IMG/VR virus record: IMGVR_UViG_3300045988_141072
Coordinates: 32,001-96,000 of that record
Length of the DNA: 64,000 nt
Strand: one strand, 5' to 3'
DNA from: a virus
The notes below the pieces were generated by a model, which did not search any database, was not told the DNA's origin, and worked only from the letters and a program-made list of their open reading frames with translations. A program made the translations under genes and the position numbers. Positions 7,759 through 51,293 of this stretch are shown here, in pieces. Position 1 is the stretch's first letter; each line of letters begins with the position of its first letter.

Positions 7759-7849
7759 AAATAAGGCGAAATTTGAGATGAAATTTCCAAGGAAATTGGA
7801 CTTTCATTGGGAGAATATTAATGTAAAGAAAGGATAAAAGTGAACAAAA

Positions 7850-15002: not shown

Positions 15003-15140
15003 ATGAAATTCAATTTTATAGATTGTATAGAATTTGAGATTGATTGGAAAGCTGTAGCAGCGATTGCAGCATGTGTACTTGGTTATGCAATCATAACAGT
15101 AATTCAGAAAGGAGATATACATATTGACAAAAGTAATTAA
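15003..15140 (+). CDS. 45-aa single-TM peptide overlapping the nrdD start
   Basis: AAAGGAGA RBS. MKFNFIDCIEFEIDWKAVAAIAACVLGYAIITVIQKGDIHIDKSN. Confidence 0.3.
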   Translation: MKFNFIDCIEFEIDWKAVAAIAACVLGYAIITVIQKGDIHIDKSN

Positions 15141-20303: not shown

Positions 20304-20355
20304 GTATGTTATACTCCTAATAAAAGGAACATCCGTTCTTGAAAGGAGTATAACT

Positions 20356-35733: not shown

Positions 35734-38700
35734 TTATCTTTTATTTGCTTGTTGATGAGCATATGAACTAAGACCAGCCAACGCATTAAATACATCATTA
35801 GCTTTTGATAAGTCGTTGATATTTGGCAAAGTAACTGTTCCAATAGAAACATTATTATTAACCATTTTATCACCAGTATTTTTAACCAAGTTGCTCATAT
35901 CAGGTATTTGAATATTGTCTAATATCATTTTTGTTGGATTAACACCAAATTTCCACAAGTTATCTGTAATATCATGTGGTAATATCTGGTCACCAGAATT
36001 AAGTAATCTTAACTCAGCACCTCCATCACCAACTATAGACATTCCACCCTTAGCATATTTTGTACCGGTTGCATATTTAGGAACACTGGCTGTAATCTTA
36101 CCATTCTTATCAATAGAAAAAGTAAGACTGTTAAACATTTTCTTGACACTATCTGACATTCCCTCAGTCATTCCCTTAGTTACAGCTCTAACTGCTTCAT
36201 CCACGGTCTTATACAGAGGTTTGCCATTTTCGTCAAAGAAGTTTACATCATCTTTGTGGTCATTTAGCCAATCTAAAATCTTGTTTAACGTATCGAGTTG
36301 TTCCTGATTATAATAGTCGTCAAGATTGTCTTGTGCTTCCTTAACTGCACTATTATCAGCCTCATAATTAAAACCATAATCCTCGTGATAGATTAAATTC
36401 TTTTTATTTTGTTTAGCACTCTGTAATGCCTGTTGAAGTTTTTCAAGTTCAATGGCTTTAGACTGAGCATCATTAAGGTCATTAATTTTGTCAATTAAAT
36501 CCTGAATTGAATTAATCCAAGGTGTCAACAAATCGTCATAGTTGTTCTCAATTTCTGCCTGTTTGTCAAGAATATCTCCGTCAAGACCATCAACTTCTTG
36601 AAGTTTATCCCGAAGTCCATCCCATGAATCAAAAGTCTTTTTAGAGATACCAAGTTTGCTGATACTCTTATAAAATTGGTCAACAGTAATAGTACCTTCA
36701 CGCATTCCTTCATACAAAGCCTTAAACTGCTTCTTCTGAGAAGAATTCAATCCTTTGTCTGATAACGTTTTGTTAATTTGACTCCATTTTTCATCACGTT
36801 CTTTTTTAAGCTGAGATAACCCATTAAGACCGATGGAAATCTGTTTTGTGATTTGCGATTCGTTTTTAGTATGTCCCTGTGACTCCCAGAATGAGATTAT
36901 CTTTTCATAGCGACTAGAAATAGCGTCAAGAACATTTTTAAACTTCTCGAGATTTTGATACGGTAATTCAGATATTGACTTATTCCATTCTAACTGGTTT
37001 TTCTCAGCATCGGATATATTTTTATCAATATCCCGAATTTTCTGCTTAATATCCTGATATTCATCTGAAGTCTTTGCGATATTATTGTTTTTGAGATATG
37101 CCTGATATGCCTTTTTCTCCTGATTCCATTTGTTAATCTGTTTCTTAGAATTAGAGATTTCTTCCTTATAATCACTCTTGGTTGCAGCAAAACCTTTTGT
37201 CTCATTTTTGTCAATTCGACTCTGTGTTTTATCTGCTTCATATTGTAACAAATCTAAATCGTCTTCTAAGTCAGAAATATCATCTTCCAATTGTTTTTTG
37301 ATAAGTTCACGTTTATTTTGTTTTGTTTCTGTAATGTTGTCTCTAGCACTAGTATACTTATCCCAATATTCCTGATAACTGTCGATTGCATCCAATACAG
37401 ATTTTTGTGACTTTTTACTTTTTCCCTTTTTAGCAGACTCTTTAATTGTTTGGATCGAATAATCACCGCTCTGAATCTTCTTTTTTAAATCAGAAGAAAG
37501 ATTAATGCTGTCGAGTTTTTTCTTGTATTTCTTTGCAGCTATTTCATATCCGTGTAATAAATCATCATACTGTTTTTTCGCCTGTTTAAATAAACCGTTT
37601 TTAGTTTTCTTAGAAGCGTAATCGTTTATCTTGTCAACAGTCTTCTTAACTTTATCTTCTAATCGTTTTAAACGAACCTCAATCCAATCAAACACTTTGT
37701 TAGAGGAAGAAGAATCAGAACCAGAACCAGAGCCAGTTACTTTGGGAAGAGAAAGGTCAATATCAATTTTTGTTTTAGTCTTTTTGCCCTTTTTATTTAA
37801 TTTGTTGCCAACTTGATCCTTTGCCATCTTTTTAGAATATTCGTCAACGGTCATTCCATTAGCTCTTGCAGCTGCTTCTAAACTCGAACCCTGATATTTA
37901 GAAGGATTGTTGTTTACATCTTGTAACAAACTAATATTATTAGCAGCAATTCCAGCAGCTTTAGCAATGTTATTTAACTGTTCTATGGTTTGGGTAGCGT
38001 CTAAATCTGACCAATTGGTTGTTTGATAAGCAAGTTTCGCAAGTTCAATTCTTGCCTTTTTAGAACCATTAGCTTCGCCAAGTAACATAGCAATATCAGT
38101 ACCCGACATTTCTGCCAACTCTTCGCCACTTTTAACAGTTTTCTTTTGTTCTTTGCTAAGAGCAGAATATGCAAGATTTAAACTTTTTGCTTTATTTTCA
38201 AGTTGAGTAGTAACAACTTCCTGTGCATTCTTTATACCTAAATCTTTTAACTGACTTGTATAATAATCCTTGTTTTCTTCTGTAAGCTGAGATAAGAAGT
38301 TGTTAGAATTAACGTATTCACTTGCAAGTTTATTCTGTGCTTCCTGACAGTCTGTAAGAGCAGAAGTAGTAGAACCAAGTGTGTTTTTAAATTCATTCCA
38401 AGACTTAAGTTTACCAAATTCAGGTTCCATACCGCTAAGAGTATCTGCACCGGCAACACCATTATCACGCTTATCGGCATATGCATCCTGAATTGATTTA
38501 ATGCTTGATTTAAGGGAATTTAACTGTTTGGAGCTATCAACCAAATCATTGATTTTCTTAATTGCAACATCAGCATCAATTCCTATTTGTGATAACCAAG
38601 TTTTTGCACCTTCTGTTGCTTCAAAGGTTTTCCTTGTAAGTTTACCTGATTCAGCAAGAGTAGTAAGGTCTTTCTTGGTATTTTTCATACCGGAATCATC

Positions 38701-41038
38701 GTCTGCGTTATCAAGGTCTGACCATGCATTCGCAAATTGCCTTTTTGCATCTATCTGTGATTGTTTAACAAATCTTTCTCTTAAATTTTTAAGTAATGTA
38801 TCACTTATATCTTTTTTAGCAATTTGAATAGCTCCGTCTTCACCAGAGAAGTGCATAAGACGACCAACAACTTCTGCCCAATTTCCATTGTTATCATAAT
38901 CTTGACTTGCACTAATAGCTGCATAAATACCATGTACAAAAGTATCACCAATTTTCATACCTTGAGCATCAAGTTTCTTTAATTCGTCATCTGAAACTTT
39001 ACCATCATCAGCGTATGCTTTTTGTAAAATAGTGTTAATATACTTTTCAACAGTGTCTTTTGATAAGAAAGTTCCATCGGGAAGAATAGGAGTAAATGCA
39101 ACCTCCCAACCATTACCATCTAAGTTTTCTCCAAAACGATCAGAACCACCAAATACAGTATCAATAGAGCCTACTTCTGGATTATAATCCCAACTTGCTA
39201 ATGCATCAGCATAAGTTTGTTTAAGCTCATCTGACCAATGGATAATTGTACGCTTATCCATATCAACGTTACCAAATTGCGATAATTTGTTTTTCTTAAT
39301 TGCATCTGCATAATCATCAAGTCCCCAATCAGAAATTTTCTGATATTCATCTTCGAGATTTTGTTGTGCTTCCTCAAATTTTTTTATTTGCTTTTGGGTA
39401 GCATTATTCTTAAAATCATTAATTATATTCTCGTCTATATTAGAAAAATCGGTTATGCTTTCTATTTCTTCATATTTTTTTAAAAGTTTCTGATAGTGCT
39501 TAGATTTTGTTGAAGCATATTCATTAACAGTGTCATCCAAACTATCTTGTGATTTTTTAGAACCTTCATCTATTCCGGAAAATAAATCATCAAAAACAGC
39601 CTTTCCACCGGATACAGTTTTGTTAATATCCTTAACCTTGTTTTTTACTGCGTTAAGATTTTTCTTTGCCGATTCGACACCTTTTCCTGAAGCTAATGCT
39701 TTATTATATTTTTCAACAGCATTTGTAGCTTCGTTATACATTTCTCTGGTGTCATCTCTTGACAAGATTTCTGCTTCGGCATATTTTTTTACATTATTTT
39801 TTGCCTTATTAATCTTGTCTTGATCAAAATCTGAGTCATTCTTTAAATCAGTAATCGTAGATTTATAAGAAGCTTTATATTTTAAATCAGAATTAGAAAT
39901 ATCATCAAAAAGGTTAGTCAATTGTTCTAAAATTTGTTCACGAGTTCCATTTGTATCAAGTCCGTAAAATCCATTTTCCGCACGATAAAATCCTAGATTT
40001 TTATACTTACTTACAATTTTTTCAAGCTTTGATATTTCAGAATCGTCAATCTTTCTTGTAACTCCCAAAACTGTGGATCTAATTAGTTCTTCATTTAAAT
40101 ACTTTTTATCTTCTTTGATATTATTATAGTTAGTAGAAACATAATCACTAGCTTTTTTCTTTGAAATTTTCTCTAGTTTACCTAGTTGCTCATCATATTT
40201 TCCATTAACTAAATCAAGTTTTTCAGCTTCATCACCATATTTTTCATTTAACTCATCTTGTATTTGAGTTAACTGTTCTTTGGTTGTTTTTATTTCTTCA
40301 TTAGAAAGAGAAGAATCTGCTAATTTGGTTTTTAATTCCTTATATTTAGATATAGATTCATCAAGTGAAGAATTTTCTTCATTCCAAGATTCGGTGAGCT
40401 CATTAGATTTTTCACGAGCTTTTTCCGATGCATGAACTAGATTATCTATTCCGGTTACAACTAGACTAATAACTTCTCCGATAGCCCATGCAGCAATCAT
40501 GTTTCCTGCCATGGATAATGCTTTCATACCAACGGACGCAGCTTTGGCACCAATAGTCATTTGTTTTAATCCGTTATTATAAGCAATAGCCGATTGTTTT
40601 GCTGCATTCTGAGCATTTTTTACATCATCAAGAGATACTTTTGTTAAGTTATTTTCTTGAACAAATCTTGATTGCCATTTTTCGCCTTCTTTTAATCCAT
40701 TAAAATAATCTTGCCAACTGCTTTGATTTGCATCTACTAATTTTTTCTGTGTCAAAAGTCCATTTAAAATGTCATCTGGATTTTGTTCGTATACAGATAA
40801 ATCTTTTAATTTATCTTGTATATCAGATTTAGTAATAATAAATTTATCACTTAGGTCTTTTTTAATAGAAGAATTTTTCCACGCATTTGCAATATTAGAA
40901 ATTGTATAATCATTTGTTGCGATTAATTCTTCTGAGACTTTTTTAAACCTATTGCCAATATCTTCAAACGATTTTCCAAATATACCAAACTGAGATGAAA
41001 ATGTATCTTTATCACTGTCAAATGTTTTGAATATCGTA
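35734..41038 (-). CDS. tail tape measure protein, downstream piece (putative exon 2)
   Basis: The ORF track starts at a TTG (40755). The same frame stays open 96 more codons, up to the TAA at 41044-41046, with no start codon or RBS. N-terminal hydrophobic segments (GAKAASVGMKALSMAGNMIAAWAIGEVISLVVTG) followed by >1500 aa of coiled-coil-rich sequence. Confidence 0.7.
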
Positions 41039-41063
41039 CTATATTAATACAAGCTGTTTGAAG

Positions 41064-41095
41064 ACTTGTTGAATTTAATTATATGTGATACAATT
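41064..41095 (+). promoter_or_regulatory. candidate promoter for the + strand cargo genes (extended -10 TGATACAAT)
   Basis: TTGTTG ... 17 nt ... TACAAT with TG at -15/-14. Located 25 nt upstream of the 41120 ATG and its GGAGG RBS. Confidence 0.4.
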
Positions 41096-41119
41096 TTCAT
41101 AAATTGGAGGTGTGCAATC

Positions 41120-41602
41120 ATGTTAATGTATTGTAAAAAATGTGGAAGAGTATGGATAAAATTTGGTACTGAAAAAGACAATTGTGATATATGTGATTCA
41201 ATTTGTTATCCTGTGCCAGATAAGTATTTATTGGTCTGGAATGGAGAAATTTATAAAAATAATTTGAATGAAAGCAAAAAAGATCAATTCATAGAAGAAT
41301 GCGTAAAATCTTCGCCAGAATTTGATGAATATCTCTTTAATAATCGAGACAGAACCAAAGCACAAAAATCTGCTGAATATGAACGAGATTTGGCTATCGG
41401 TGATGCAATACGTCAAGGTGCAGATGTTAAAACAGCTTTTCGTAATGGTGGACAAAATATTCCTAAATGTCCTACCTGTGGTTCGACAAATATTCAAAAA
41501 ATCTCCACCACAAGGAGATTGGTAACTACAGGTTTATTTGGATTAGCAAGCAGTAATGTTGGTAAAACTATGCTTTGTAAAAATTGTGGTTACAAGTGGT
41601 AA
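41120..41602 (+). CDS. double zinc-ribbon protein
   Basis: GGAGG at 41106-41110. N-terminal CKKCG...CDIC and C-terminal CPTCGSTNIQKI...GLFGLASSNVGKTMLCKNCGYKW. Confidence 0.6.
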   Translation: MLMYCKKCGRVWIKFGTEKDNCDICDSICYPVPDKYLLVWNGEIYKNNLNESKKDQFIEECVKSSPEFDEYLFNNRDRTKAQKSAEYERDLAIGDAIRQGADVKTAFRNGGQNIPKCPTCGSTNIQKISTTRRLVTTGLFGLASSNVGKTMLCKNCGYKW

Positions 41603-41693
41603 ACAATATCGAATGCATGTTCAGGCTATCCTCATTTGGTAATTAGTGGTAAAATATTCCTATAAAAATAATGTACAGAGGAGGAAGTTTACT

Positions 41694-41999
41694 ATGACAA
41701 CTAATGAACAATGTATGAAAGATATTCTTACTTTCATTGACGAAAACACAAGCGTAAAAGTTAGGACATCTAGCAATAATGATATTGAATTGCGAGCACC
41801 TGGAATTTCATCAATATTAACAGCTTTGAGCAAAGATAATAAATATTCTATTGAAGAAGTTGCTTTTAATCTTGTAAAATGTGATAAATTACATCTTATA
41901 GATGCAAACTTATATACTCAAGGGAATACTATTAAATCTGCTCAAAGTGATATTTATGGTATTACATGTTACGGAGAACAATTTATCAAAGAAAAATAA
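41694..41999 (+). CDS. hypothetical protein (possibly winged-helix, DUF2513/YjcQ-like)
   Basis: AGAGGAGG RBS. MTTNEQCMKDILTFIDEN... The N-terminus resembles the 43244 ORF type. Confidence 0.45.
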   Translation: MTTNEQCMKDILTFIDENTSVKVRTSSNNDIELRAPGISSILTALSKDNKYSIEEVAFNLVKCDKLHLIDANLYTQGNTIKSAQSDIYGITCYGEQFIKEK

Positions 42000-42025
42000 T
42001 CTACTTTTATGTTTTTATCGGTGTT

Positions 42026-42208
42026 TTAAATTTCTGATTCATCATCAGGAAATCTTAAATATCCTGTACATTTTAAGCGATCAAGTGAATTATTTAAAAA
42101 GACTACGGCTTGGAAATAATCCAAGTCGTTTTCTTTGAATAACAATAATAATCCACTATATAATTGTTCTATTTTTTCATGAGTACCAATACTTAATTTA
42201 TTGTTCAT
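42026..42208 (-). CDS. hypothetical 60-aa protein
   Basis: GAGGTG RBS 6 nt before the ATG at 42208. The ORF-track start at 42331 is an unsupported extension. Confidence 0.4.
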   Translation of the reverse strand: MNNKLSIGTHEKIEQLYSGLLLLFKENDLDYFQAVVFLNNSLDRLKCTGYLRFPDDESEI

Positions 42209-42272
42209 AATTATCACCTCATAATAAATTGCTAAAGAGTATACAAAGTCGAAATAGAATAGGAGAACTAAT

Positions 42273-42710
42273 ATGTTATCAGATGAACAATTACAAAGAT
42301 TATCTGAAATCATAAGTTCAGCAGAATACAAAAATTATACAGCCAGCCAGATAAAGGAACAGACATATAAAAATCTAAAACAAAATAATATTCCAGATTT
42401 TGAAAATCCAATAGTAACAGAATTAAAAACTGCTAACAGTAAGATTGATGAATTATCAGAACAGTTGGATTATTCATATACACAACTTAAACAAGCAAAT
42501 GATAAAATTTCTTCTCAGAATTTATATATAAAAGAGTTGAAATCTGATTTAAAAGAAGAAACTGAGAAAAGAGTAATTGCCGAAAATAAGTTGGGTAGTA
42601 AAGATTGGAAAACTGCACTGATTTCGTTTGGGTTTGCTTTACTTGTTTTGATAATAGAACATTGGAAAGACATTTTAACTTTTATACTATCCCTAATACA
42701 CGCAAGATAG
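42273..42710 (+). CDS. coiled-coil protein with C-terminal membrane anchor
   Basis: AGGAGAA RBS. Heptad-rich middle region. C-terminal WKTALISFGFALLVLIIEHW. Confidence 0.5.
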   Translation: MLSDEQLQRLSEIISSAEYKNYTASQIKEQTYKNLKQNNIPDFENPIVTELKTANSKIDELSEQLDYSYTQLKQANDKISSQNLYIKELKSDLKEETEKRVIAENKLGSKDWKTALISFGFALLVLIIEHWKDILTFILSLIHAR

Positions 42711-42783
42711 TAATCCCAACACAATACCCTAAAATAGTTCCTATACCTTGGAAAAATATTTGTCGTTTTATTTCTTTAGACAT
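42682..42783 (-). CDS. 33-aa hydrophobic peptide, convergent with and overlapping the 3' end of 42273..42710
   Basis: AAAGGAG RBS. MSKEIKRQIFFQGIGTILGYCVGITILRVLGIV. Confidence 0.35.
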   Translation of the reverse strand: MSKEIKRQIFFQGIGTILGYCVGITILRVLGIV

Positions 42784-42819
42784 ATTGACTCCTTTCTTTG
42801 AAATAAATACTGTCATTCA

Positions 42820-42936
42820 ATGAACACTTCTAAAATTGGCACAGTAAGTCGTATGATTTCGACCACTATGTTCGGATTAGCAAGTAAGAAAATGGGTAAA
42901 CAATGGCACTGTAATAGCTGTAAGAGTGATTTTTAA
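42820..42936 (+). pseudogene. orphan copy of the C-terminal half zinc-ribbon module of 41120..41602
   Basis: MNTSKIGTVSRMISTTMFGLASKKMGKQWHCNSCKSDF parallels ...IQKISTTRRLVTTGLFGLASSNVGKTMLCKNCGYKW. It lacks the first CxxC and has no RBS. Confidence 0.4.
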
Positions 42937-42969
42937 AAATAGAATAATTCACTTAAACATATGTTCCGA

Positions 42970-43266
42970 CTAACAAAATCCATCAACATGATTTAATGCC
43001 ATTACAACATCGTTATCAACATGGTTCGTTTTATGACCACTAAAATAATCATCATATATTGCATATTCTAATTCATTACGTTGTTCCTTAAACTTATCAG
43101 TGAGAAGCGTAAGAATTTCTTCGACTTCAGAATATGTACATTTGTGATTTTTTAGCATTTGAGAAATTTCAACTGAGAGATACATTGTTTTTGAGATATA
43201 TTTATTATCCAATTTATCACATCCTTTCAATGGAGGTATACTAATGAAGCTTAATCCTGATTGCAT
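42970..43266 (-). CDS. hypothetical protein (start uncertain)
   Basis: ORF divergent from 43244..43684. Internal candidate starts exist. No motif recognised. Confidence 0.35.
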   Translation of the reverse strand: MQSGLSFISIPPLKGCDKLDNKYISKTMYLSVEISQMLKNHKCTYSEVEEILTLLTDKFKEQRNELEYAIYDDYFSGHKTNHVDNDVVMALNHVDGFC

Positions 43267-43684
43267 GAGAATTATACTTAAATACTGTGTAGAACATATT
43301 GATTATAAAGACATTGGTCTTAATCAGTGGCATGAAAATTCTGTTACACTTGCTATGCTATATAATAGTGATGAACTCAAAGAGTTTGAGAAGAAAGAAA
43401 TTATGTATTCTGTAATGAAACTTTATGAGTATAGGTTTATTACCGTATCTAAAATTCAGCCAACAAACGGACAACAATATTTTGACAGTTGTGAAATAAC
43501 AGACGTAACGGTTTATGGTCACGACTTTTATAATTCTATTCAAGAAGATACCATCTGGAATAAAACTAAAAATGTTGTTGGTCAAGTTGGAAATCACACA
43601 TTGAAGTTCATCGAAGATGCTGCTCAAAAAATTGCAATTGAGTCTGCGAAACAAGCTGTAACTATTACGATGATGCAAAAATAA
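43244..43684 (+). CDS. DUF2513/YjcQ-like protein
   Basis: GGAGG RBS. The N-terminus MKLNPDCMRIILKYCVEH is typical of DUF2513-type proteins as I recall them. Confidence 0.5.
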   Translation: MKLNPDCMRIILKYCVEHIDYKDIGLNQWHENSVTLAMLYNSDELKEFEKKEIMYSVMKLYEYRFITVSKIQPTNGQQYFDSCEITDVTVYGHDFYNSIQEDTIWNKTKNVVGQVGNHTLKFIEDAAQKIAIESAKQAVTITMMQK

Positions 43685-43706
43685 TATTTAGATCAAATAG
43701 AATAGA

Positions 43707-43735
43707 AGAGTAGTGAGAAATTACTACTCTTTTTT
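43707..43735 (+). terminator. rho-independent terminator after 43244..43684
   Basis: AGAGTAGT (43707-43714) pairs with ACTACTCT (43723-43730), followed by TTTTT. Confidence 0.6.
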
Positions 43736-43739
43736 AGAC

Positions 43740-43777
43740 AAAAAAGAGCAACTATAAACATATAGTTGCTCATAAAA
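43740..43777. terminator. strong bidirectional terminator (perfect 11-bp stem)
   Basis: GAGCAACTATA (43746-43756), loop AACA, TATAGTTGCTC (43761-43771). A-run upstream and A/T-rich downstream. Confidence 0.6.
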
Positions 43778-44021
43778 GAAATATCTTTTTATATAATTCA
43801 CTGGCTCAATGCCAAATAGCGTTAGGAAAATGGTAATCCTAACATATCAATTCACTGTCCTTATTGACTATTTAACTATGACACATTTATTCTTTTTCGT
43901 CAACAATGTTCTTTTTCAATTGTATTATATGCGATATGAGCCAAGTGTAATAGTTGTGGGCATACTTGATAGAAGAAGAACAATAGAAGAGGAGTAGACT
44001 ATATCGCCGCTCTTTGCTTTT

Positions 44022-44061
44022 ATGTAAAATAAAATGAGAGCAGGTCACACCTACTCTCATT
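44022..44061 (-). terminator. rho-independent terminator downstream of the second repeat pair
   Basis: On the - strand: AAUGAGAG, loop, CUCUCAUU, then UUAUUUUAC. Confidence 0.55.
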
Positions 44062-44089
44062 CTTTCTACTGATGATATTTATCTCCCTG

Positions 44090-44161
44090 CTTCGTGGTCA
44101 CACCTCTATCAGTTCGACTACCGTACCTCGTGGTCACACCTCTATTACGGTATTAATATCA
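44090..44161 (-). repeat. two tandem 36-nt repeats related to the ToxI-like array (orphan antitoxin-like RNA?)
   Basis: Units 44090-44125 and 44126-44161 share C(T/C)TCGTGGTCACACCTCTAT. A third partial GGTCACACCT lies at 44043 in the terminator loop. They share a CTTCGT...TCTATTA core with the 45627-45734 repeats. Confidence 0.45.
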
Positions 44162-44192
44162 TAATAAATATATTCTATGATGTCAATGTTTA

Positions 44193-44918
44193 TCATAAAA
44201 TATTTTTTATTCCCAATATCTCCTTATATTCTGTATCTACATTATAAATTTTAGCTCCTAGTATTTTTGCTAATTTATGAAAATCTTTTTTAACATTCGC
44301 ATTATATCTAAGCATTTGTGATGGAACTATATCTGCTATTTGCAAACCAATGCAATTATCACCTTTCACAGTAAAACCAATAGAAGATAAGTAGTTACTA
44401 ACTTCTTTTTCATCAAAATAAATAGAGCCATTTTGTAAATATCTATAAAAGACATCTAAGACATTTTTATTTTCATTAAAGCAACGTGACTCAACACAAA
44501 TTTGACCATAACCACCTTTATCTCTTAGATAATATGTAAACATATCTAATAAATGATAAAATCCAATATTATAATTATTACCGGCTTTCCCATATCGCAA
44601 TTTAGACATTTTATTATTATCAAAGTAAATACATAAAATATCAAGTTTTGCCTCTGATAGAAGTTTTGCGTAATCATCCCAAAACGGTTTTCTTATCTTT
44701 TCATCTTGTAGACAAGCAAAATCTTTTTTATTCTTTCGCATATCGGTATAGTGAAAAACAATATCGGTACGACCAAAATGTTTTTGCTTTAATTGGTTTA
44801 CAAGTTTTGTTAATTCCTTTTCGTAATATTCTCTCTCAACGACAATTCCAGCAAAACAAAAGTTTGAATAATGTTTATCTGGTTTAGTTTCGTCAACAAA
44901 GAGCAAATAATCAGCCAT
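44193..44918 (-). CDS. DUF3800-family protein
   Basis: GGAGAA RBS then ATG at 44918. The N-terminal LLFVDET acidic motif is typical of DUF3800. Confidence 0.6.
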   Translation of the reverse strand: MADYLLFVDETKPDKHYSNFCFAGIVVEREYYEKELTKLVNQLKQKHFGRTDIVFHYTDMRKNKKDFACLQDEKIRKPFWDDYAKLLSEAKLDILCIYFDNNKMSKLRYGKAGNNYNIGFYHLLDMFTYYLRDKGGYGQICVESRCFNENKNVLDVFYRYLQNGSIYFDEKEVSNYLSSIGFTVKGDNCIGLQIADIVPSQMLRYNANVKKDFHKLAKILGAKIYNVDTEYKEILGIKNIL

Positions 44919-45034
44919 AATATATTCTCCAATCATTAGTATTATAATTCCCCATTATATACCAATAATCGACAGAATACTATTCAGAACGTTTGTTTAT
45001 AGGTGAATAGAATAGAAGAGTAATGAGAAATTGT

Positions 45035-45067
45035 TGCATAATAAAAGACACCTTAGTTGGTGTCTTT
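45035..45067 (-). terminator. hairpin/terminator overlapping the toxN stop codon
   Basis: AAAGACACC (45044-45052) pairs with GGTGTCTTT (45059-45067). The stop codon lies in the loop. The downstream tract on the - strand is U-rich. Confidence 0.45.
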
Positions 45068-45589
45068 ATTGTTTTGGTACATCTTTGCTAATTGCTCCAT
45101 ACCTTTGAAATCAATGCAACGCTTGGAAATAGTATTTTCTGGTTTATCATATTTTAGACTATAAAGCTCCAAAGCCTTAGTACCTAAGTCTAATTTGTTG
45201 ATTGCCTTCAGCTCTGAATCTAACAGATTAATATATCTGCTTTTAGCTTCTTCTGACTCAAAAGACCTGTATGTATCTATTTTCTTTTTCTCAAATTTTT
45301 GTGTACATTCTTTTGGAATTGGAAACATATAATTCAAATTTACGACAGCAATTAGTCTTTTTGGATTTTTGAGATCAAACAGTTTATAGAAATCTTTCTG
45401 TTGTCCCATTTTTTGATGTCGCTTTTGTGGATGAGATACTTGTGTTATATAATATAAACCGTCTTTTTCAAAAAGAACTCCGAAGAATGGCTTATATTTG
45501 TCTGTCCCATAATCTGTTTTTGGTATTCTTTTTTCTACATTTCTCAAATAATCTAAATAATTTTCATTTACATGAATCCATTTCATCAT
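45053..45589 (-). CDS. toxN: type III toxin-antitoxin toxin, ToxN/AbiQ-family endoribonuclease
   Basis: MKWIHVNENYLDYLR..., PFFGVLFE, YYITQVSHPQKRH, VVNLNYMFPIP and C-terminal KRCIDFKGMEQL all parallel conserved ToxN/AbiQ blocks. AGGAGA RBS at 45598-45593. Start at 45589 or 45586. Confidence 0.85.
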   Translation of the reverse strand: MMKWIHVNENYLDYLRNVEKRIPKTDYGTDKYKPFFGVLFEKDGLYYITQVSHPQKRHQKMGQQKDFYKLFDLKNPKRLIAVVNLNYMFPIPKECTQKFEKKKIDTYRSFESEEAKSRYINLLDSELKAINKLDLGTKALELYSLKYDKPENTISKRCIDFKGMEQLAKMYQNNKDTN

Positions 45590-45600
45590 ATGTCTCCTAA

Positions 45601-45625
45601 ATAAAAGGAGCTGTAACACAGCCCC
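45601..45625 (-). terminator. attenuating terminator between antitoxin repeats and toxin
   Basis: On the - strand: GGGGCUGU, loop GUU, ACAGCUCC, then UUUUAU. This is the same position as in ToxIN/AbiQ loci. Confidence 0.65.
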
Positions 45626-45626
45626 T

Positions 45627-45734
45627 TATTAATACGATTTTTTACATGCTTCGTAACATCTATTAATACAGTATTTTTACATGCTCTGTAACATCTATTA
45701 ATACGATTTTACGGCTTCGTAACCGCTATTATAG
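45627..45734 (-). ncRNA. toxI: ToxI/antiQ-like antitoxin RNA: about 3 tandem repeats of 31-35 nt
   Basis: Repeats at 45627-45660, 45661-45695 and 45696-45726, plus a partial 4th. Each contains a hairpin with compensatory changes (AUGUU-ACGA-AGCAU versus CGGUU-ACGA-AGCCG) and an A-rich tract. Confidence 0.8.
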
Positions 45735-45770
45735 AAATCATTTCTGATTTCTTACTTATATTATACACAA
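45733..45770 (-). promoter_or_regulatory. candidate toxI-toxN promoter (-10 TATAAT at 45765-45760) and 5' leader hairpin
   Basis: GTGTATAAT on the - strand. 8-bp hairpin AGAAATCA/TGATTTCT at 45733-45752. Confidence 0.35.
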
Positions 45771-45889
45771 TTATGAGAAAAAATCTATGCTTTTTTTGAA
45801 AAACTTTTAAATTTTTTAAGTCAATAAAAGTCGAAAAAATACGATGAAAAATTGTATCGCATTTTTGCAAAGTATTATATAATTATTTA

Positions 45890-46509
45890 GGGGGGGAGAA
45901 CAAAAGTCCATAGATTTAATTCTGTGGGCTTTGTTTTTATGTGTGTTTCTTTCAAACTTACGGTACACACGAACCCTACTGTTGTCCTATTAACAATGTG
46001 CTATTTAATAAGGTGAGAGCAGTAACACTCTTTTACGCTTTTATATCTCAGTCACGAGAGTAGTACGATAACTACGTATGGAGTCCCTTTTACAAGCTAT
46101 CTTATGATAACTCAAAATCGTTTAGACTCTCTGAACACCTCCATTATAATATTCTCTATTATAATAGAATCCGTTGCTGATTGCCGATTTAGTTCATATA
46201 GAACCGATACTTAGGGTTGCCCCATATATCCGAATAACCTCCATTTCTAGATTTGACTTTTCTTGTTGTCACCAACATCCTTTCGGAATACATTCACGCT
46301 CGCCATTTCTAGCCACGTTGTAGTGTGTTATTTTATATATACGGTATATTTTATTTCTTCCCAGCACTGTGAGATAGCAACTCACAATTACGATTTATTT
46401 TAAAACATCTATAGGCTGACTAGACCTAATCTTCCCAACTCTTGATTGTTATCTTGAGTTAGGTGGGCATATTCAAAACAATAACAACGATTTGAAAAAT
46501 TACGCACTC
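45890..46509 (-). ncRNA. ~620-nt ORF-free structured RNA; putative group I-like ribozyme core at the 5' end of the intervening sequence
   Basis: No ORF on either strand. Many hairpins. P1-like hairpin at 46515-46500. GUUCAGAGAGUCUAAAC (46136-46120) resembles the group I R element. Candidate P3, P7 and P8 pairings (see findings). Confidence 0.5.
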
Positions 46510-49500
46510 ACGTAACATTTACCGATGTTTTTAAAACTAAGACCTGCTGCAATAGCAGCAAAAATATTTGGAATCAAACGCCCATCTTTTATTACAGTAT
46601 CAAGAGCGCTAATTAATTTTCCAGCATTATCAATAGCACCCTTTAAAAAGTCTGATGATAACGCATCATTTGCTAATTCTTCTAGTTTAGCTTTTGTAAC
46701 ATCAATAGAATACTGAATTGATTTCTGATAATTTTCTTGTTCTTTTTGTGCAGAACCGGCAGAGTTTTCGGCTGTTTTATATACATTTTCTAATTGATCA
46801 ATATTCTGCATAACAGAATATAAAACATTGGCATTTCGTTTTCCAGCCAAAGCCTCTCCAAGAGAAGACTGTTCTAAGTCTGTAAGATTATTCCACTCTT
46901 TTCCTATTCCAAGTAAAATATCGTATATTGACTTAAAAGTATTTTCATCTTCCATAATATCAAATCCAGTAAGGGATTTGATCAAATCTCGTAATTTTGA
47001 AGTTGTTTTGGTATATTCATCTGTTTCTTCGCCAAGATTTTGCAATTCTGTTTCTGCACCACGAATACGTGCAGAAAGTGTCTTAAATGTTGTACCGATA
47101 CTGTCTGGATCTTGCACTACAGCATTTGCAGTAGTAACTAAAGCTATACTTTCAGATAAACTCGTGTTTGCAGCATTAAACGAAGCAGCAGAACGTTTCA
47201 AAGCTTCGCCAATACCTTGTGTGTCTATTGCATAGTGGTTCGCAACCTCATTAAATTTGTCAATTATGCTTTCGGCTTTACTTGCATCTAACTGAAAACC
47301 TTGAAGTGTTGAAATAAGATTTTCACTTGCAGTTTCTGTAGACATATTGTCGCCGACATTAACATAAAGCTGTGTCGTTTTCGCTAATTTCTCTGCGTCT
47401 GGAATAGAATAACCAAGTCTAGCCCAATCTGCTTGCAATGATACAATGTTACTAATTGAAGAACCTAAATCTTTTGCATCGACTGTCGCCTGTTCAAGAG
47501 CATTATTTAAGTCCGACTCTGTTCCGTCAGACACCTTTCTTAATTCAGTGACACTTTTATTAATTTCATTAACTAAATTAAATCCTTGCTGTAGATATCT
47601 TATCCAATCTTGCCAACTCAAAAACTGAGCAACAAACTTGCTGTTCATATCAGTAAGACGACTACCAATTTGACTAAAGAAGTTTTTGCCCATATTACCA
47701 GTTGAAGCAACATCTGCCTTTAATCCAGAAAAAGATATTTTAATCTTTTCAATTTCTTGTGCAGTTACTTTACCAGCGTTTTTAAGTTCTTCTGCATAAT
47801 CAATAATACTATCTAAATTCTGCTTCTGAGATGAAGACATATTGGTGTTTTGCGATCTAAAAATCTTCATCTGTGATATAATATCAGCAATCTTAGAATC
47901 TTGTTTAACAAGTTTATTCTCTAACAATTTTGAATCGTCAACTATTTTTTGAACTTCACTATCAATCGCCTTTAAGCGGGCAACGTCTTCTGGTTTTGTG
48001 ATATTAAGCCGCTCAATTTCTTTCATTTTTGAGCTAACTCGCTCAATAAATTCAGGAGTATATTTAGAAGCATTAGTGTATGTAGATAATTTTTGTACTT
48101 CATCATTTTGAATTTTTAAAAGACTATTATCGACTTTTTGTGCATTTTTTTGCTGAATCTCCGAAATAGTTTTATCTATTTTATCCAACTTATCCTGTGC
48201 ATTAGATAATTGTTTAGACGATAATATGGTGGCAGAACCATCTGCTTTTCCCATAATTTCATTTATTGTTTTCAATAATTCTTGGGAATCTTTTTTATCG
48301 TTATTAAATGCCTTGTCATTTGCCATTCGTTTTCTTATAGAAGCATATTCATCTATGGCAATATTTAACTCTTTGAATTTTTGAATTTGCTTGTCCGTTT
48401 TAGGTATTTTTATTTCATCTTTTCCAAAGTTTGTCAACTCATTATCAAGATTATTAATCCCCTTAGTAATAGTTCGAAATCTTTGAGAAAACATATTTCC
48501 ATCTGCGTCAATTCTTGCAGAAAATGTTTTCCAAGTTCCATCAGCGTCTTTTATTTTTGCACTTACCTTTACAAGACCATCAACAAGTTCAGTGTTTACT
48601 GTTTCTCCAAGAATTGTATATCCAGAATTTAATAACTTCTCATTAACTCTATTAGGAGAGTAATTTAAGAAATCTTCTTCTGATATTTTTTTTCTTTTTG
48701 TATATCTATCCTTTTTAGGTGGAGTAGGTGGAGTTGTATTTCCCGATGAAATATTCGATTCTTCTGATGGAAGAGTAGTATCATCTTTTGGTATTTTTAA
48801 TTTAGGAATATTTTCTATCTTTTCTACCAATGGATTTAAAGCATCAATAATTTTCTGAATAGATTTGACTTCAGCCCTTGCAGCTAATTCCATCGTATTA
48901 GCTTCTATCTTAATTGCTTCAGTTTTTATATTAATAGTAGAAGTTAAAGTATTAACAGAATCTTCTACTTTATTAAACCCTTTTGCTTCATTCGTGACAG
49001 AAGTTCCATCTTTTTTTGAATTCATCTGTTCATAGACTTTGTTCATTTTTTTAATGGTTTCTGTGTTGTCTGTTAAATCAAAAGGTGTTTTCATACCGCC
49101 AGCGTTTACATACTTTTGGTACATTTCAACTAATTCTTGAATATCTTTCTTCTGCTTAGATAAATTGATTTTACCAGATTCATCAGCAATGGATTTGAAT
49201 TTAGATTCAATAGAAGACCACTGTTTATCTACATCGCTAATAGAAGCGTCTTTGAACATTTTCCAAAATGTATTACCAATATCTCTTGTCAAATTTATCA
49301 TACGGTCAAGTCGAGAAATAACATCATCAAGAGTAGAAGATACTGATTCCAATTCATTGTCTGCTTTGTCTACAGAAGATGTATCTACTTTCTGGGAATT
49401 TAACTCTTTAACTTTTAAAAGAATAGTATCTATGATATTCTTGCTATCTTCAAGTTTCCCAACCCTTCCAATAGAAGACAACTCATTAGTGCCGCCCATA

Positions 49501-51293
49501 TTGAGATATTTATTATATTCTGAAGCAAGCTTATCCACATTTGCATTTTTTCTAAAAGTACCATCTAATTTGATAGAATTTTCAATTAACTTAGATACAT
49601 TCTTCCACTGCGTTTCGATGTCGGTGACACTACTTACACCCGATGCTCTTGCAAGAGTAGATTCTATATTCTGTAATGTCTTTAACATTGACTGCAATTC
49701 GGTTAATTGACCAAGACTTTTTGAAATTTCTTCTGCAAATTTATCAAATCCTTTAAAACTAAAATTCTTTGAATCTGCTGAATTTAATAATTCATTAACC
49801 TCTACAAGTTTGTCAGCAAGTTCATTAACCTCTTTTTTTGATTCTGCTATTTGACCTGTAATATCAATCTTTTTACCAGAATCGGAAGAAAGAAGTGCGT
49901 CTGATATTTTTTTGAATTCTTTTTCATTAAAATCAAAACATAATTTAATAGGAGAAATTTCAAATATATTTTGAATTTTACCAATTGTTTTCTTAGAATA
50001 AGAAACAGCCTCATCCATTATAGAAGTAAATGTCTTCTTATAAACACCTTCTAAATCAATAACTGCATCTTCACCAGTTTTTGCTAATTCTCTTTGATAT
50101 TTTTTTGAATAAGACTTGCTTACAGTTCCGACTTCACCTTTTTTCTCAGAAGATACTGCATTTGGTGCTACTACAAGTTTTACAGGAGCAACAACAGGAT
50201 TATTATTAAGATCATTCTGCAAATTATCAAGAATAGGAGAGAGCTTCTTCCATAATTCAGACGAAGTGGTTTCAATTGTTACACCAGTTACTAATTCTGC
50301 TGAATTTGGATTGAGTTTATCTGATATTTTTGCGGAAGCTGTTTTAGACGAAGTAGGTTTTATCATTTTTTCTAATTCTTCACGAGTTTTGATAGCCGAT
50401 TCACGAATTTCATCTAAAGTACCCTTTACGATTTTTCCATATTCAGATACTTTTTTGTCAACATTGTCATCAGAAATAAGTATTGAATCGCCAAATGTAT
50501 ATTCCCCTGTTTTATCAGGAATATCCATTAACTGTTGAATAGAATCATGTAAATCGGCAGCTTTTAATTTTAATATATTAATTTGGTTAATTGTTTTTTC
50601 AAAACCAATACTGTTTTTATCAAAGTTTGAAAGTTCCGATTCAGATTTTTCGATTAATTCAAGAGTGTTTTTTAAATCCCTGGCAAGAACATCTAATTCT
50701 GCTTGAGCTTGATCTGTATCAAATAATTCATATTTTGAACCTTTTGCATCACTGAATTCATCTGTACTTTTAAGTAGTTTATTAATTTCTTTTATCTGAG
50801 ATTTTGCTTGATTTACTGCGTTATCATCAAATGACATTAATGAAATGCCTTGATCATTAAGCTTCTTAATCATTGTATCAATAGCATTATTTGTATTCTG
50901 TACATAGTCTTGGAAATCTTTAAATTGACTACTTATTTTACTTATATCAATACCATTTCCAAGTATTTTTATTTGTGAATTTATAGTTGAAACAGCTAAA
51001 TCTAATCTATCAATTTCTGCACGAACAGATTCAAAATTCTTATTAACAGTTTGCTTAAAAGCCTTAAAACTGTTTTTATCCACTTTTCCGATACTTAAAT
51101 CAGAAAAAGATTTTTCCATATCTGCCTTAAAACGTTTTAATTCAGCAATAGTGTTATCAAATTGTGCCTTCATTCCTTTTGATAACTTATCACTTGAAGC
51201 CATCTCGGTTAAAGCAGATTCGTAATCACGAATCATCTGATTAAGCTCATTCTTATAATCAATAGCAATACTTACTACACCATCTTTTGCCAT
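46510..51293 (-). CDS. tail tape measure protein, upstream piece (putative exon 1; as an unspliced ORF it ends at 46500)
   Basis: TP901-type TMP core near the C-terminus (LGSSISNIVSLQADWARLGY...AIDTQGIGEALKRSAASF...SIGTTFKTLSARIRG). About 1200 aa of coiled-coil-rich N-terminal extension. AAGGAGGAA RBS. Confidence 0.8.

What the first reader, a model, noticed from the sequence alone, without database searches (positions are those of the whole stretch)
45890..46509. ORF-free ~620-nt structured RNA with group I intron-like elements at the 5' edge of the insertion
Read on the - strand: a hairpin UUACGU|GAGU-GCGUAA (46515-46500) puts a U.G wobble exactly where the ORF leaves TMP-like sequence, as in a P1 helix. 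GUUCAGAGAGUCUAAAC (46136-46120) resembles the conserved group I R element (Tetrahymena GUUCACAGACUAAA). Candidate pairings are P3 AAAUCGU (46396-46390) with ACGAUUU (46121-46115), P8 GAGUUAUC-AUAA-GAUAGCUU (46113-46094) and P7 GAGUCU (46129-46124) with GGACUC (46086-46081), with a 7-nt J8/7. Cleavage after U46510 and ligation after G41039 gives GU+U = Val and joins the two TMP pieces in frame. G41039 is the only G in the correct phase just 3' of the in-frame stop. Caveat: I could not trace a convincing P4-P6 domain by eye, so the class assignment is tentative.
Basis: partly seen in the sequence, partly recalled or inferred. Interest (0 to 1): 0.85.

Follow-up and report, generated by a model that had tools for sequence, protein, structure and literature searches.

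The report
Cargo-carrying group I intron in phage gene
The ORF-free RNA is the ribozyme core of a self-splicing-type (group I) intron that interrupts a phage tail tape-measure gene and unusually carries about 4.9 kb of passenger genes, including an anti-phage toxin-antitoxin system, between its core and its 3' splice site.

Summary
Window 46520-45941 (- strand) folds as a group I ribozyme. In 19 distinct relatives, 95.3% of cells pair and 60 of 136 pairs carry double changes, against 24 in shuffles. P3 and P7 each have three compensatory pairs. Part of it matches an Epulopiscium intron that Rfam scores at 66.6 bits. The window itself scores only 10.5 bits.

The best-supported 5' splice site follows U46521 (U.G with G46466). 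The terminal intron G is G41035 and exon 2 starts at A41034. A 12-bp P10 helix (46480-46469 with 41034-41023) adjoins P1 and covaries in three lineages. Two filled/empty allele pairs agree with these sites.

The 5,486-nt intron joins the tape-measure halves in frame (KNIG|IFKTFD). Its payload holds ToxI/ToxN (AbiQ-type), DUF3800, two DUF2513 genes and a conserved antisense zinc-ribbon gene. More than 60 fetched loci from related gut-phage and Lachnospiraceae contigs are interrupted at this site. They show at least 12 intron lengths, some with a nested TnpB. Splicing itself is untested.

The parts
46521..51293 (-). Exon 1: N-terminal 1591 codons of the tail tape-measure gene (PhageMin_Tail), ending ...AAC AUC GGU (KNIG)
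   Evidence: ORF; Pfam family listed. The exon end is set by the U.G pair of P1, the adjoining P10 helix and intron-less alleles.
46466..46523 (-). P1: exon GGU (46523-46521) pairs with guide-sequence GCC (46468-46466). [quoted passage not shown]
   Evidence: All three pairs are invariant in 19 sequences (helix 1). Types O and L014 extend this helix to 6-7 bp (GUCGG/CCGAC).
46500..46515 (-). The N-ORF stop codon lies in it.
   Evidence: All 5 pairs change on both sides (helix 2). Absent from L036 and L043.
46469..46480 (-). P10 strand of the internal guide sequence, UGUUUUGAAUAU, directly 5' of the P1 strand
   Evidence: Perfect 12-nt complement of exon 2 at 41034-41023. Reached by 1 of 20,000 shuffles. 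Covaries in L101, L082 and L018.
46410..46463 (-). P2 (46463-56 with 46441-34) and P2.1 (46430-25 with 46415-10)
   Evidence: One search gives coordinates. helices 3 and 4: 5 and 6 pairs with double changes.
46115..46396 (-). P3: AAAUCGU (46396-90) with ACGAUUU (46121-15). This long-range helix forms the core pseudoknot with P7.
   Evidence: helix 5: 100% paired, 3 compensatory pairs (AAGCCAU/AUGGCUU in L036 and L043).
46368..46386 (-). Extra hairpin (PX) inserted in J3/4, UGUGAG-UUGCUAU-CUCACA. Not part of the standard group I scheme.
   Evidence: helix 6: 4 compensatory pairs. Absent from the Rfam-validated relative L081.
46135..46366 (-). P4-P6 domain. P4 is 46366-61 with 46180-75 (P and Q elements GUGCUGGGAAG and AAUCAGCAAC). 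P5 is 46345-42 with 46186-83. The P5 extension has GAAA, GUGA and GCAA loops and an 11-nt tetraloop receptor (UAUGG...CCUAAG, about 46226-46210). P6 is 46174-72 with 46137-35, plus P6a.
   Evidence: helices 7-19. P4 is invariant. The P5-extension motif and AAUCGGCAAUCAGCA are shared with L081, which Rfam scores as Intron_gpI at 66.6 bits.
46080..46131 (-). P7 with the predicted guanosine-binding site: G46131, bulged A46130, GAGUCU 46129-24 pairing with GGACUCC 46086-80. It encloses the P3 3' strand, P8 (46113-06 with 46101-094) and J8/7 (46093-87).
   Evidence: helices 20 and 21: P7 is 100% paired with 3 compensatory pairs, and P8 has 3. Further P7 variants in L076 and L080.
45941..46075 (-). 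P9 domain: P9 (46075-71 with 46064-60), P9a, P9.1, P9.2 and P9.3 (45970-65 with 45946-41). End of the ribozyme part.
   Evidence: helices 22-27. Similarity to relatives stops at about 45934.
45903..45932 (.). Stem-loop followed by a U-rich tract directly after the core. Relatives have a different hairpin plus U-run at this place.
   Evidence: the scan lists it on the + strand; for relatives. Its role (terminator or attenuator) is inferred.
45053..45731 (-). Cargo 1: a type III toxin-antitoxin module. ToxI-like repeats at 45731-45627 (35 nt x 3.2), a hairpin at 45627-45605, and the ToxN/AbiQ gene at 45619-45053.
   Evidence: TRF; Pfam ToxN_toxin 2.9e-42; PADLOC AbiQ 5.5e-21; hairpin.
44193..44936 (-). 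Cargo 2: DUF3800 protein (247 aa)
   Evidence: Pfam 5.8e-11. DUF3800 genes also sit in the intron cargo of L018 and L012.
41646..43997 (+). Cargo 3, antisense to the intron: a DUF2513-like gene (41646-41999), a 145-aa coiled-coil protein (42273-42710), a DUF2513 gene (43244-43684) and a 62-aa ORF. A 98-aa ORF lies on the - strand (42970-43266).
   Evidence: No function assigned.
41120..41602 (+). [quoted passage not shown]
   Evidence: Present in 51 fetched loci, including type O introns, and in the Roseburia contig L076. 658 homologues with no Pfam family. AF2 model pLDDT 85, no PDB fold match.
41035..41069 (-). 3' terminal segment: hairpin ACAAG...CUUGU (41069-41049), then UAUUAAUAUAGUACG ending in the terminal intron G, G41035. 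The 3' splice site lies between 41035 and 41034.
   Evidence: The hairpin covaries (UUAAG/CUUAA in L101). A G precedes AU(A/C)UU in every relative examined.
35734..41034 (-). Exon 2: C-terminal 1766 codons of the tape-measure gene, starting AUA UUC AAA ACA (IFKT). No start codon for 93 codons.
   Evidence: The joined exons are in frame with no stop within 300 codons on either side.

Best explanation
Window 46520-41035 (- strand, 5,486 nt) is a single group I intron inside the tail tape-measure gene of a temperate phage whose head and tail genes resemble SPbeta's. It is built like an IStron (a known chimera of a group I intron and an insertion sequence).

The whole ribozyme (P1-P9.3, about 580 nt, 46520-45941) lies at the 5' end. 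A 4.9-kb payload follows, and the 3' splice site lies at the far end.

Inferred mechanism, following the established group I pathway. When the late operon is transcribed through the element, the guide sequence at 46480-46466 pairs with the last three exon-1 bases (GGU, with the U46521.G46466 wobble). It also pairs with the first 12 exon-2 bases through an unusually long P10 helix. A free guanosine bound in P7 attacks after U46521. The terminal intron G, G41035, then takes its place, and the exons are ligated. The product reads ...AUCGGU|AUAUUC... and encodes one 3,357-aa tape measure (...SFKNIG|IFKTFDSD...).

The payload genes have promoter-like sequences of their own and lie on both strands. 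They are ToxI/ToxN (an abortive-infection system), DUF3800, DUF2513 genes and a conserved antisense zinc-ribbon gene. They could therefore be expressed in the lysogen while the late gene is silent. On this view the intron is a neutral docking site for exchangeable accessory and defence genes inside an essential gene.

Shown: the fold, the covariation, the guide-exon pairing, frame conservation, filled/empty alleles and cargo variability. Inferred: catalysis, transcription read-through, and when the cargo is expressed.
For: Fold. 27 helices were scored on 19 distinct sequences. 95.3% of cells pair. 60 of 136 pairs have double changes, against 24 +/- 3.5 in shuffles (0 of 500 reach it) and 5-14 in slid controls. 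P3 and P7 are each 100% paired with 3 compensatory pairs. The joining regions J6/7-P7 (GUGUUCAGAGA) and most of J8/7 are invariant.

Link to accepted group I introns. The P and Q elements, the P5-extension motif and AAUCGGCAAUCAGCA are shared with L081, which Rfam scores at 66.6 bits, E = 1e-14.

Splice sites. The 12-nt perfect P10 is reached by 1 of 20,000 shuffles. It adjoins P1, and it covaries in three lineages:
- L101: CCGAAUAU with AUAUUCGG.
- L082: UUGAAGAU with AUCUUUAA.
- L018: UUGUACUGC with GCAGUACAA.

Empty sites. L102 reads GTAGGT|ATATTTGG (KGVG|IFG), against filled L101. L019 is empty against filled L018.

Frame. The joined exons are open for 300 codons on each side in the window, L009, L024, L067 and L076. 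Exon 2 has no start codon for 93 codons.

Distribution. The same RNA (71-95% identical) sits at the same site in TMPs that are only 27-60% identical. It also occurs in Lachnospiraceae genomes, including the cultured Cuneatibacter caecimuris DSM 29486.

Cargo. Intron lengths run from 1,684 to 6,570 nt across more than 12 variants. ToxN is unique to this contig, while the zinc-ribbon gene is in 51 loci. Relatives carry NsnA-like/GmrSD_N proteins or a TnpB inserted at the GAGAAUAA motif after the core.
Against: - No splicing data exist.
- Rfam RF00028 gives only 10.5 bits.
- P1 in this RNA type is only GGU/GCC.
- An extra hairpin interrupts J3/4.
- The - strand of the intron holds six terminator-like hairpins, plus a stem-loop directly after the core that the scan lists on the + strand. 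Half of the payload is antisense genes with their own promoters, so a 5.5-kb read-through transcript is not assured.
- Published IStron work found that splicing falls steeply as cargo length grows (bioRxiv 10.1101/2023.11.20.567912, figure legend read).
- No uninterrupted close relative was found among 5.8 billion proteins. A two-piece tape measure in this lineage therefore cannot be excluded.
- G41039 combined with a 5' site after G46522 is also in frame.
Confidence: 0.8

Rival explanations
1. The tape measure of this phage lineage is made as two separate proteins. The region between them is an ordinary hotspot for accessory genes. The ribozyme-like RNA is a relic or has another role, such as 3' processing or stabilising the upstream mRNA, and no exon ligation occurs.
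For: All close relatives are interrupted and no junction-spanning protein was found. Terminator-like hairpins follow the core and recur through the payload. Cargo length is reported to depress IStron splicing.
Against: Exon 2 has no start codon or ribosome-binding site for 93 codons and is open from the junction. The guide sequence stays complementary to exon 2 through compensatory changes in three lineages, which only makes sense if exon 2 is a substrate. The catalytic core is under strong structural constraint. Frame is preserved across variable intron lengths. L018/L019 and L101/L102 show recent insertions into continuous ORFs.
Confidence: 0.1
2. The element is an IStron in the strict sense. 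That is an IS200/IS605- or IS607-type transposon fused to a group I intron, which moves by TnpA and is retained by TnpB and its guide RNA. Here it would have decayed.
For: The layout is the same: core at the 5' end, payload after a GAAUAA-type motif downstream of P9.x, and a distant 3' splice site (PMC4227781). Relatives L016 and L041 carry TnpB, with a RAGATH-18 RNA after it in L016.
Against: The window copy has no tnpA, tnpB or guide RNA. All 30+ copies of this ribozyme type sit at one homologous TMP site, not dispersed. P7.1 and P7.2, which are described for all surveyed IStrons, are absent. In L041 the TnpB module ends against intron-internal sequence, so the IS is nested in the intron rather than sharing its ends.
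Confidence: 0.05
3. One reading: P1 is the hairpin at 46515-46500, cleavage follows U46510 and ligation follows G41039 (Val codon GU+U).
For: It is in frame, and the hairpin can close with a U.G pair.
Against: The hairpin is missing in L036 and L043. The closing pair is C-G or U-A in other members. The same rule gives a stop codon in type O introns. Intron-less alleles end exon 1 at GGT. P10 places exon 2 at 41034.
Confidence: 0.03
4. The 5.5-kb insert is removed at the DNA level by site-specific recombination on prophage induction, as with intervening elements in sporulation genes.
For: The phage is temperate and encodes a tyrosine integrase at 20269-21666.
Against: There is no recombinase gene in the insert. 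There are no terminal direct or inverted repeats beyond a 2-nt microhomology. The insert is present in contigs classed as viral.
Confidence: 0.02

Closest known systems
IStrons (CdISt1, BcISt1, CboIStron; group I intron + IS605/IS607 chimeras)
   Same: The complete ribozyme is at the 5' end. A long non-homing-endonuclease payload sits between the P9 subdomains and the 3' splice site, beginning after a GAAUAA-type motif. They insert in protein-coding genes, and some relatives of the window element carry TnpB.
   Different: No transposase, TnpB or guide RNA here. There is one conserved insertion site rather than many. The core lacks P7.1/P7.2 and has an extra J3/4 hairpin. The payload is 4.9 kb, multi-gene, on both strands, variable between relatives and rich in defence-type genes. 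Where TnpB is present it is nested.
Homing-endonuclease group I introns of phages (T4 td, nrdB and sunY; SPbeta bnrdE/F; Bacillus cereus prophage and Cluster J mycobacteriophage structural-gene introns)
   Same: A group I intron in an essential phage gene at a conserved site. [quoted passage not shown] Flanking exon sequence is highly conserved, consistent with homing or co-conversion.
   Different: Those introns are 0.25-1.5 kb with at most one endonuclease ORF in a peripheral loop. This one is 5.5 kb, has no recognisable endonuclease and has a 12-bp P10.
Prophage accessory-gene and defence hotspots (variable defence cassettes at fixed positions of temperate phages and satellites)
   Same: Fixed genomic position, highly variable cargo, and known defence genes (AbiQ/ToxIN here; NsnA-like/GmrSD_N in relatives).
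   Different: The hotspot lies inside the reading frame of an essential structural gene and relies on an RNA-level repair, splicing.
ToxIN / AbiQ type III toxin-antitoxin systems
   Same: Promoter, a 35-36-nt tandem RNA repeat, a hairpin and then a ToxN-family endoribonuclease gene.
   Different: This is only a passenger here. It is unique to this contig among 107 loci.

Membership tests
Group I intron | Core fold: P3-P7 pseudoknot with P4-P6 and P3-P8/P7-P9 domains | tested here: met
   all core helices are 98-100% paired. P3, P7 and P8 each have 3 compensatory pairs. P4 is invariant. The whole-structure measures exceed all 500 shuffles and all slid controls.
Group I intron | Guanosine-binding site: a G-C pair in P7 next to a bulged A | tested here: met
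   G46131-C46080, bulged A46130, G46129-C46081. All are invariant in 19 sequences. Binding itself was not tested.
Group I intron | P1 with a U.G wobble at the 5' splice site, formed with an internal guide sequence | tested here: met
   U46521.G46466 plus two G-C pairs, invariant. The helix is only 3 bp in this RNA type. It is 6-7 bp in types L014 and O.
Group I intron | Terminal G and P10 pairing of the guide sequence with the 3' exon | tested here: met
   G41035 precedes exon 2. The 12-bp P10 is reached by 1 of 20,000 shuffles. Compensatory changes occur in L101, L082 and L018.
Group I intron | Score above the Rfam RF00028 gathering threshold | tested here: not met
   10.5 bits against 50. 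The model also missed L029, L030 and L077. It hit L081 at 66.6 bits, and L081 shares the P4-P5 region with the window RNA.
Group I intron | GTP-dependent self-splicing | not testable with these tools
   Needs in vitro transcription or RNA from an induced lysogen.
IStron | An IS200/IS605 or IS607 component (tnpA and/or tnpB with its guide RNA) within the intron | tested here: not met
   No such ORF or RNA in 46520-41035. Present in relatives L016 and L041.
IStron | IA2-type core with P7.1/P7.2, as described for all surveyed IStrons (PMC4227781) | tested here: not met
   P7 5' strand, then AA, then the P3 3' strand, then U, then P8. There is no room for P7.1/P7.2.
IStron | Multiple dispersed copies or varied target genes | tested here: not met
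   Every copy of this ribozyme type found lies at the same TMP site.
Group II intron | Domain V / D1-D4 models and GUGYG...AY ends | tested here: not met
   No group II hit at E <= 10 in 40500-47000. A GUGCG does occur at 46509-46505 but lies inside P1a.
Type III toxin-antitoxin ToxIN/AbiQ (cargo) | A ToxN-family toxin preceded by tandem antitoxin RNA repeats | tested here: met
   Pfam 2.9e-42, PADLOC AbiQ 5.5e-21, and 35-nt repeats x 3.2 directly upstream.

The most novel reading that the evidence does not exclude
Group I introns at this tape-measure site serve gut temperate phages as a exchangeable 'safe harbour' for defence and accessory gene cassettes. The cassettes would be expressed from their own promoters in the lysogen. 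A cargo-tolerant ribozyme, which finds its 3' splice site kilobases away through a 12-bp P10, would restore the essential gene during lytic growth. Recombination within the conserved intron ends would shuffle cassettes between distantly related phages.
Probability: 0.5. Interest if true: 0.85.

Novelty: new variant of a known kind. Interest (0 to 1): 0.75.

Why it matters
Group I introns in phage structural genes, and IStrons, are already known. I found no description of a bacterial or phage group I intron that carries a multi-gene, bidirectional, lineage-variable payload with anti-phage systems. Seven full-text literature searches returned none.

If it splices, three things follow:
- Phages have a way to place accessory genes inside an essential reading frame at no cost.
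- Defence cassettes would be linked to intron mobility and to recombination between the two halves of the tape-measure gene.
- It would be a natural ribozyme that tolerates about 5 kb between its core and its 3' splice site, where published IStron constructs lose activity with about 1 kb. That is of practical interest for engineered self-splicing and RNA-circularising systems.

It is directly testable, because a cultured strain (Cuneatibacter caecimuris DSM 29486) carries a relative.

Tried and rejected
- **Rfam.** Nothing at gathering score in the window. E-value mode on 6.5 kb and on 711 nt gave only noise plus a 10.5-bit RF00028 fragment. ROOL, GOLLD and group II models gave no hit.
- **Phage GenBank collection.** blastn with the RNA found no match. 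tblastn with the junction peptide found only distant TMPs.
- **Terminal repeats.** No terminal inverted or direct repeats that would indicate a transposon.
- **IS608-like TTAC/TTGAT target idea.** Dropped once P1 and P10 fixed the ends.
- **Group-B-IStron-like 5' site after GG, with G41039.** It is in frame, but intron-less alleles (GGT|ATATT) and P10 adjacency disfavour it.
- **Covariance model R1 (P6-P9).** It did not reach the Rfam-validated L081. It gave only E of about 0.05 on the type O RNA, so it neither links nor separates them.
- **Search for intron-less alleles by the predicted ligated junction AAYRTCGGYATATTCAAAACA.** No viral contigs matched. Eleven metagenome contigs matched, but none gave a tblastn hit to the TMP queries (empty output). 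The two inspected lie in unrelated ORFs, one a 645-aa protein containing NIGIFKT. These are chance matches.
- **Long-range 'IR stem' around the cargo.** Best duplex -16.5 kcal/mol against -10.7 +/- 2.9 in shuffles, reached by 13 of 300. It is weak and explained by a shared promoter-like motif.
- **Zinc-ribbon protein.** No Pfam, PADLOC or PDB-fold assignment.
Full report
**Context.** The window is part of a 151-kb metagenome contig (ENA ERZ501911 NODE_20). Its head and tail genes hit the SPbeta families YomW and YomU. It also encodes a tyrosine integrase, a PolIII alpha subunit, a RecD-like helicase, an NAD ligase and an NrdD that contains a LAGLIDADG intein. It is therefore a large temperate phage.

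On the - strand, a tape-measure (TMP) ORF runs from 51293 to 46500 (1597 aa, PhageMin_Tail) and stops. A second reading frame is open from 41043 to 35734. That frame has no start codon until 40755. About 5.5 kb lies between the two.

**What lies in the gap.** The first roughly 580 nt have no conserved ORF. After that come:
- three and a fraction 35-nt tandem repeats (45731-45627), followed by a ToxN/AbiQ gene (Pfam 2.9e-42, PADLOC 5.5e-21). Together these form a type III toxin-antitoxin abortive-infection module;
- a DUF3800 gene;
- a block of + strand genes: two DUF2513 genes, a coiled-coil protein and a 160-aa double zinc-ribbon protein.

There is no recombinase, transposase or homing endonuclease.

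Rfam gives nothing at gathering score. In E-value mode the only group I signal is a 10.5-bit, E = 7.7 partial match at 46128-46315. Group II, ROOL and GOLLD models do not hit. Folding the single sequence is uninformative, with z of about -2 on both strands. The question therefore had to be settled by comparison with relatives.

**Relatives.** A junction-spanning TMP peptide retrieved 19 viral contigs. Nearly all matched only its first or only its second half, so they are interrupted at the same place. Two of them carry the same RNA at 95% identity.

A motif from the RNA (CACTACAACGT...GCGTGAATGTA) then found 27 viral contigs and 7 bacterial genome contigs. Copies of the window's RNA type are 71-95% identical. 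Every one follows the end of a TMP N-terminal part that is only 27-60% identical in protein. The genome hits with this RNA type are from Clostridia, mostly Lachnospiraceae: Roseburia, Agathobacter, Jutongia, a Clostridium sp. contig and the cultured Cuneatibacter caecimuris DSM 29486.

The same motif also occurs in introns with the standard group I sequence elements elsewhere. One sits in a ribonucleotide-reductase gene (L029). One, from Epulopiscium (L081), is scored by Rfam as Intron_gpI at 66.6 bits, E = 1e-14. In that Rfam alignment the shared motif lies in the P5 insertion. L081's AAUUGCUGGAAA and AAUCGGCAAUCAGCA are the two strands of P4. The window RNA has GUGCUGGGAAG and the identical AAUCGGCAAUCAGCA.

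**Fold.** I aligned 19 distinct family members (A1), wrote a group I structure on the window sequence and counted pairs.
- 95.3% of 2,526 cells form standard pairs.
- 60 of 136 pairs show changes on both sides. Shuffles give 24 +/- 3.5 (0 of 500 reach the observed value), and partners slid by 1-3 columns give 5-14.
- Its P7 (46129-24 with 46086-81) also has three. I extend P7 by G46131-C46080 across a bulged A46130, which is the standard guanosine-site geometry.
- Its P8 (46113-094) has three as well.

It comprises:
- P4 (46366-61 with 46180-75);
- P5 (46345-42 with 46186-83);
- a 155-nt P5 extension made of short hairpins capped by GAAA, GUGA and GCAA loops, plus a standard 11-nt tetraloop receptor (UAUGG...CCUAAG);
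- P6 and a long P6a.

P2, P2.1, P9, P9a, P9.1, P9.2 and P9.3 are supported too. Two features depart from the textbook scheme. A covarying hairpin is inserted in J3/4 (46386-68). P7.1 and P7.2 are absent, so the core is not the IA2 type described for IStrons (PMC4227781).

**Splice sites.** However, it is missing from L036 and L043. Its closing pair is C-G or U-A in some members.

The sequence just downstream, UGUUUUGAAUAU-GCC (46480-46466), behaves as a standard internal guide:
- GCC pairs with the exon bases GGU (46523-21), giving an invariant U46521.G46466 wobble.
- The adjoining 12 nt are the perfect complement of AUAUUCAAAACA at 41034-41023. Only 1 of 20,000 shuffles reaches this, and no other 80-nt stretch of the window exceeds 10 nt.

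This P10 helix covaries in three other lineages. L101 has CCGAAUAU with exon AUAUUCGG. L082 has UUGAAGAU with AUCUUUAA. The unrelated ribozyme in L018 has UUGUACUGC-GCC with exon GCAGUACAA directly after a terminal G.

Two filled/empty comparisons fix the junction. L019 is empty against L018, where similarity breaks at CATGGT|G and resumes after ...ACAG|. L102 is empty (GTAGGT|ATATTTGG, KGVG|IFG) against L101, where DNA similarity ends exactly at GGT.

For the window this gives: exon 1 ends at U46521, the intron runs from A46520 to G41035, and exon 2 starts at A41034. The joined frame (...SFKNIG|IFKTFDSD...) is open for 300 codons on both sides in the window and in four relatives whose introns measure 1,684-6,570 nt. 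An alternative pairing (5' site after G46522 with G41039) is also in frame, but it fits neither the empty sites nor P10 adjacency.

**Architecture and relatives.** Homology among family members stops about 10 nt after P9.3. Most have the motif AGAGAAUAAUAAA(A/G)UAG there. This is the same kind of GAAUAA motif after which the IS component of IStrons begins.

Payloads differ from that point:
- NsnA-like/GmrSD_N proteins;
- DUF6173, a GNAT protein, DUF3800 and many unknowns;
- a TnpB in L016 and L041, followed by a RAGATH-18 RNA in L016.

In L041 the TnpB module is a clean insertion at the motif, and its right end abuts intron-internal sequence. The IS is therefore nested, not co-terminal with the intron.

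The last roughly 600 nt are conserved again. They hold the antisense zinc-ribbon gene, found in 51 fetched loci and in the 1,684-nt Roseburia intron, a small covarying hairpin, and the terminal ...UA(C/U)G. ToxN occurs only in this contig. At least 12 intron lengths were seen.

Other ribozyme-like RNAs occupy the same TMP site in other lineages (types O, L010, L014, L016 and L018). Type O shares only the first 47 nt, which are the guide region. This is as expected if that segment must pair with conserved exons.

**Weak points.** Nothing here shows catalysis.
- The P1 helix of this RNA type is only 3 bp.
- The - strand of the intron carries six terminator-like hairpins, plus a stem-loop directly after the core that the scan lists on the + strand. 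Half of the payload is transcribed the other way.
- Published IStron constructs lose most splicing with about 1.2 kb of cargo.
- No uninterrupted close relative exists among 5.8 billion proteins.
- My search for the predicted ligated junction in DNA returned only chance matches.

A lineage in which the tape measure works as two polypeptides is therefore not excluded. Against that reading, exon 2 lacks translation signals, the guide sequence keeps covarying with exon 2, and the frame is kept across all length variants.

**Verdict.** The class assignment is right and the splice sites are corrected. The element is best described as a group I intron with IStron-like layout that has no IS of its own and serves as a carrier of variable, defence-rich cargo inside an essential phage gene. 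I rate it a new variant of a known kind, with interest 0.75.

Noticed in passing
window 44031-44186 (- strand): This looks like a small-RNA gene directly downstream of the DUF3800 gene. It has the best sigma-70-like promoter match of the region (TTGACA-17-TATGAT, 44186-44158). Two 25-nt repeats spaced 36 nt apart follow (AUAGAGGUGUGACCACGA..., 44145-44085), with a third partial copy inside a strong terminator (44063-44031). The layout resembles a type III antitoxin array, but no toxin gene follows.
   Followed up: partly
window 41120-41602 (+ strand); also L002 7445-8008, L076, 51 loci in all: [quoted passage not shown] It is the only cargo gene conserved across ribozyme types and hosts. It has 658 homologues, no Pfam family and no PDB fold match (AF2 pLDDT 85). 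It may have a role in intron inheritance or regulation.
   Followed up: partly
window 45850-45866 (-) and 41090-41106 (+): The promoter regions of the ToxIN module and of the zinc-ribbon gene share the motif TG(C/T)GATACAATTTT(T)CAT in opposite orientation. In a read-through pre-mRNA these would form a helix of about 14 bp enclosing 4.8 kb of cargo. The duplex energy is only marginally better than in shuffles (13 of 300 reach it).
   Followed up: partly
window 15124-18393 (+ strand): The anaerobic ribonucleotide reductase NrdD carries an intein with a LAGLIDADG homing endonuclease (Pfam Intein_splicing, LAGLIDADG_3, Hom_end). This is a second selfish element in the same phage.
   Followed up: no
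L052 2536-4278; L014 about 5860-7646; L015 about 5565-7823; L018-L020 about 6493-7799; L002 12882-13035: Relatives have further insertions at other TMP positions. The one in L052 has a 398-aa ORF with a GDYWH motif, preceded by the same ACAGAGAAUAA motif. L002 has another group I-like core (Q and R elements; model R1 gives 19.6 bits) in the C-terminal TMP part. None is present in the window.
   Followed up: partly
L002-L008, L015, L048-L074 (e.g. L002 3865-5060): A second RNA (type O) that cannot be aligned by sequence occupies the same TMP site. It shares only the first 47 nt (the guide region) with the window type. It contains an 11-nt internal repeat of the exon/intron junction (GATACGTTAGT) and a C.A pair instead of U.G at the predicted splice site. 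Model R1 hits it only at E of about 0.05.
   Followed up: partly
L016 8888-10185; L041 8090-9310: TnpB genes lie inside introns of this family, followed by a RAGATH-18 RNA in L016 (71.9 bits). The module is inserted exactly at the GAGAAUAA motif. This suggests the TnpB guide targets TnpB-less introns rather than the host gene.
   Followed up: partly
loci L002-L074 compared with the window TMP: The two TMP halves have discordant histories. In type O loci the N-terminal part is about 35% identical to the window's, while the C-terminal part is 60-64% identical. About 20 nt of exon on each side of the intron are nearly identical at the DNA level. This is consistent with recombination or co-conversion centred on the intron.
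   Followed up: no
window 45903-45932; relatives e.g. L009 2025-2075: A stem-loop plus U-rich tract directly follows the ribozyme core in the window. Most relatives have one too, with a different sequence. It may be an attenuator that controls read-through into the cargo and exon 2.
   Followed up: no
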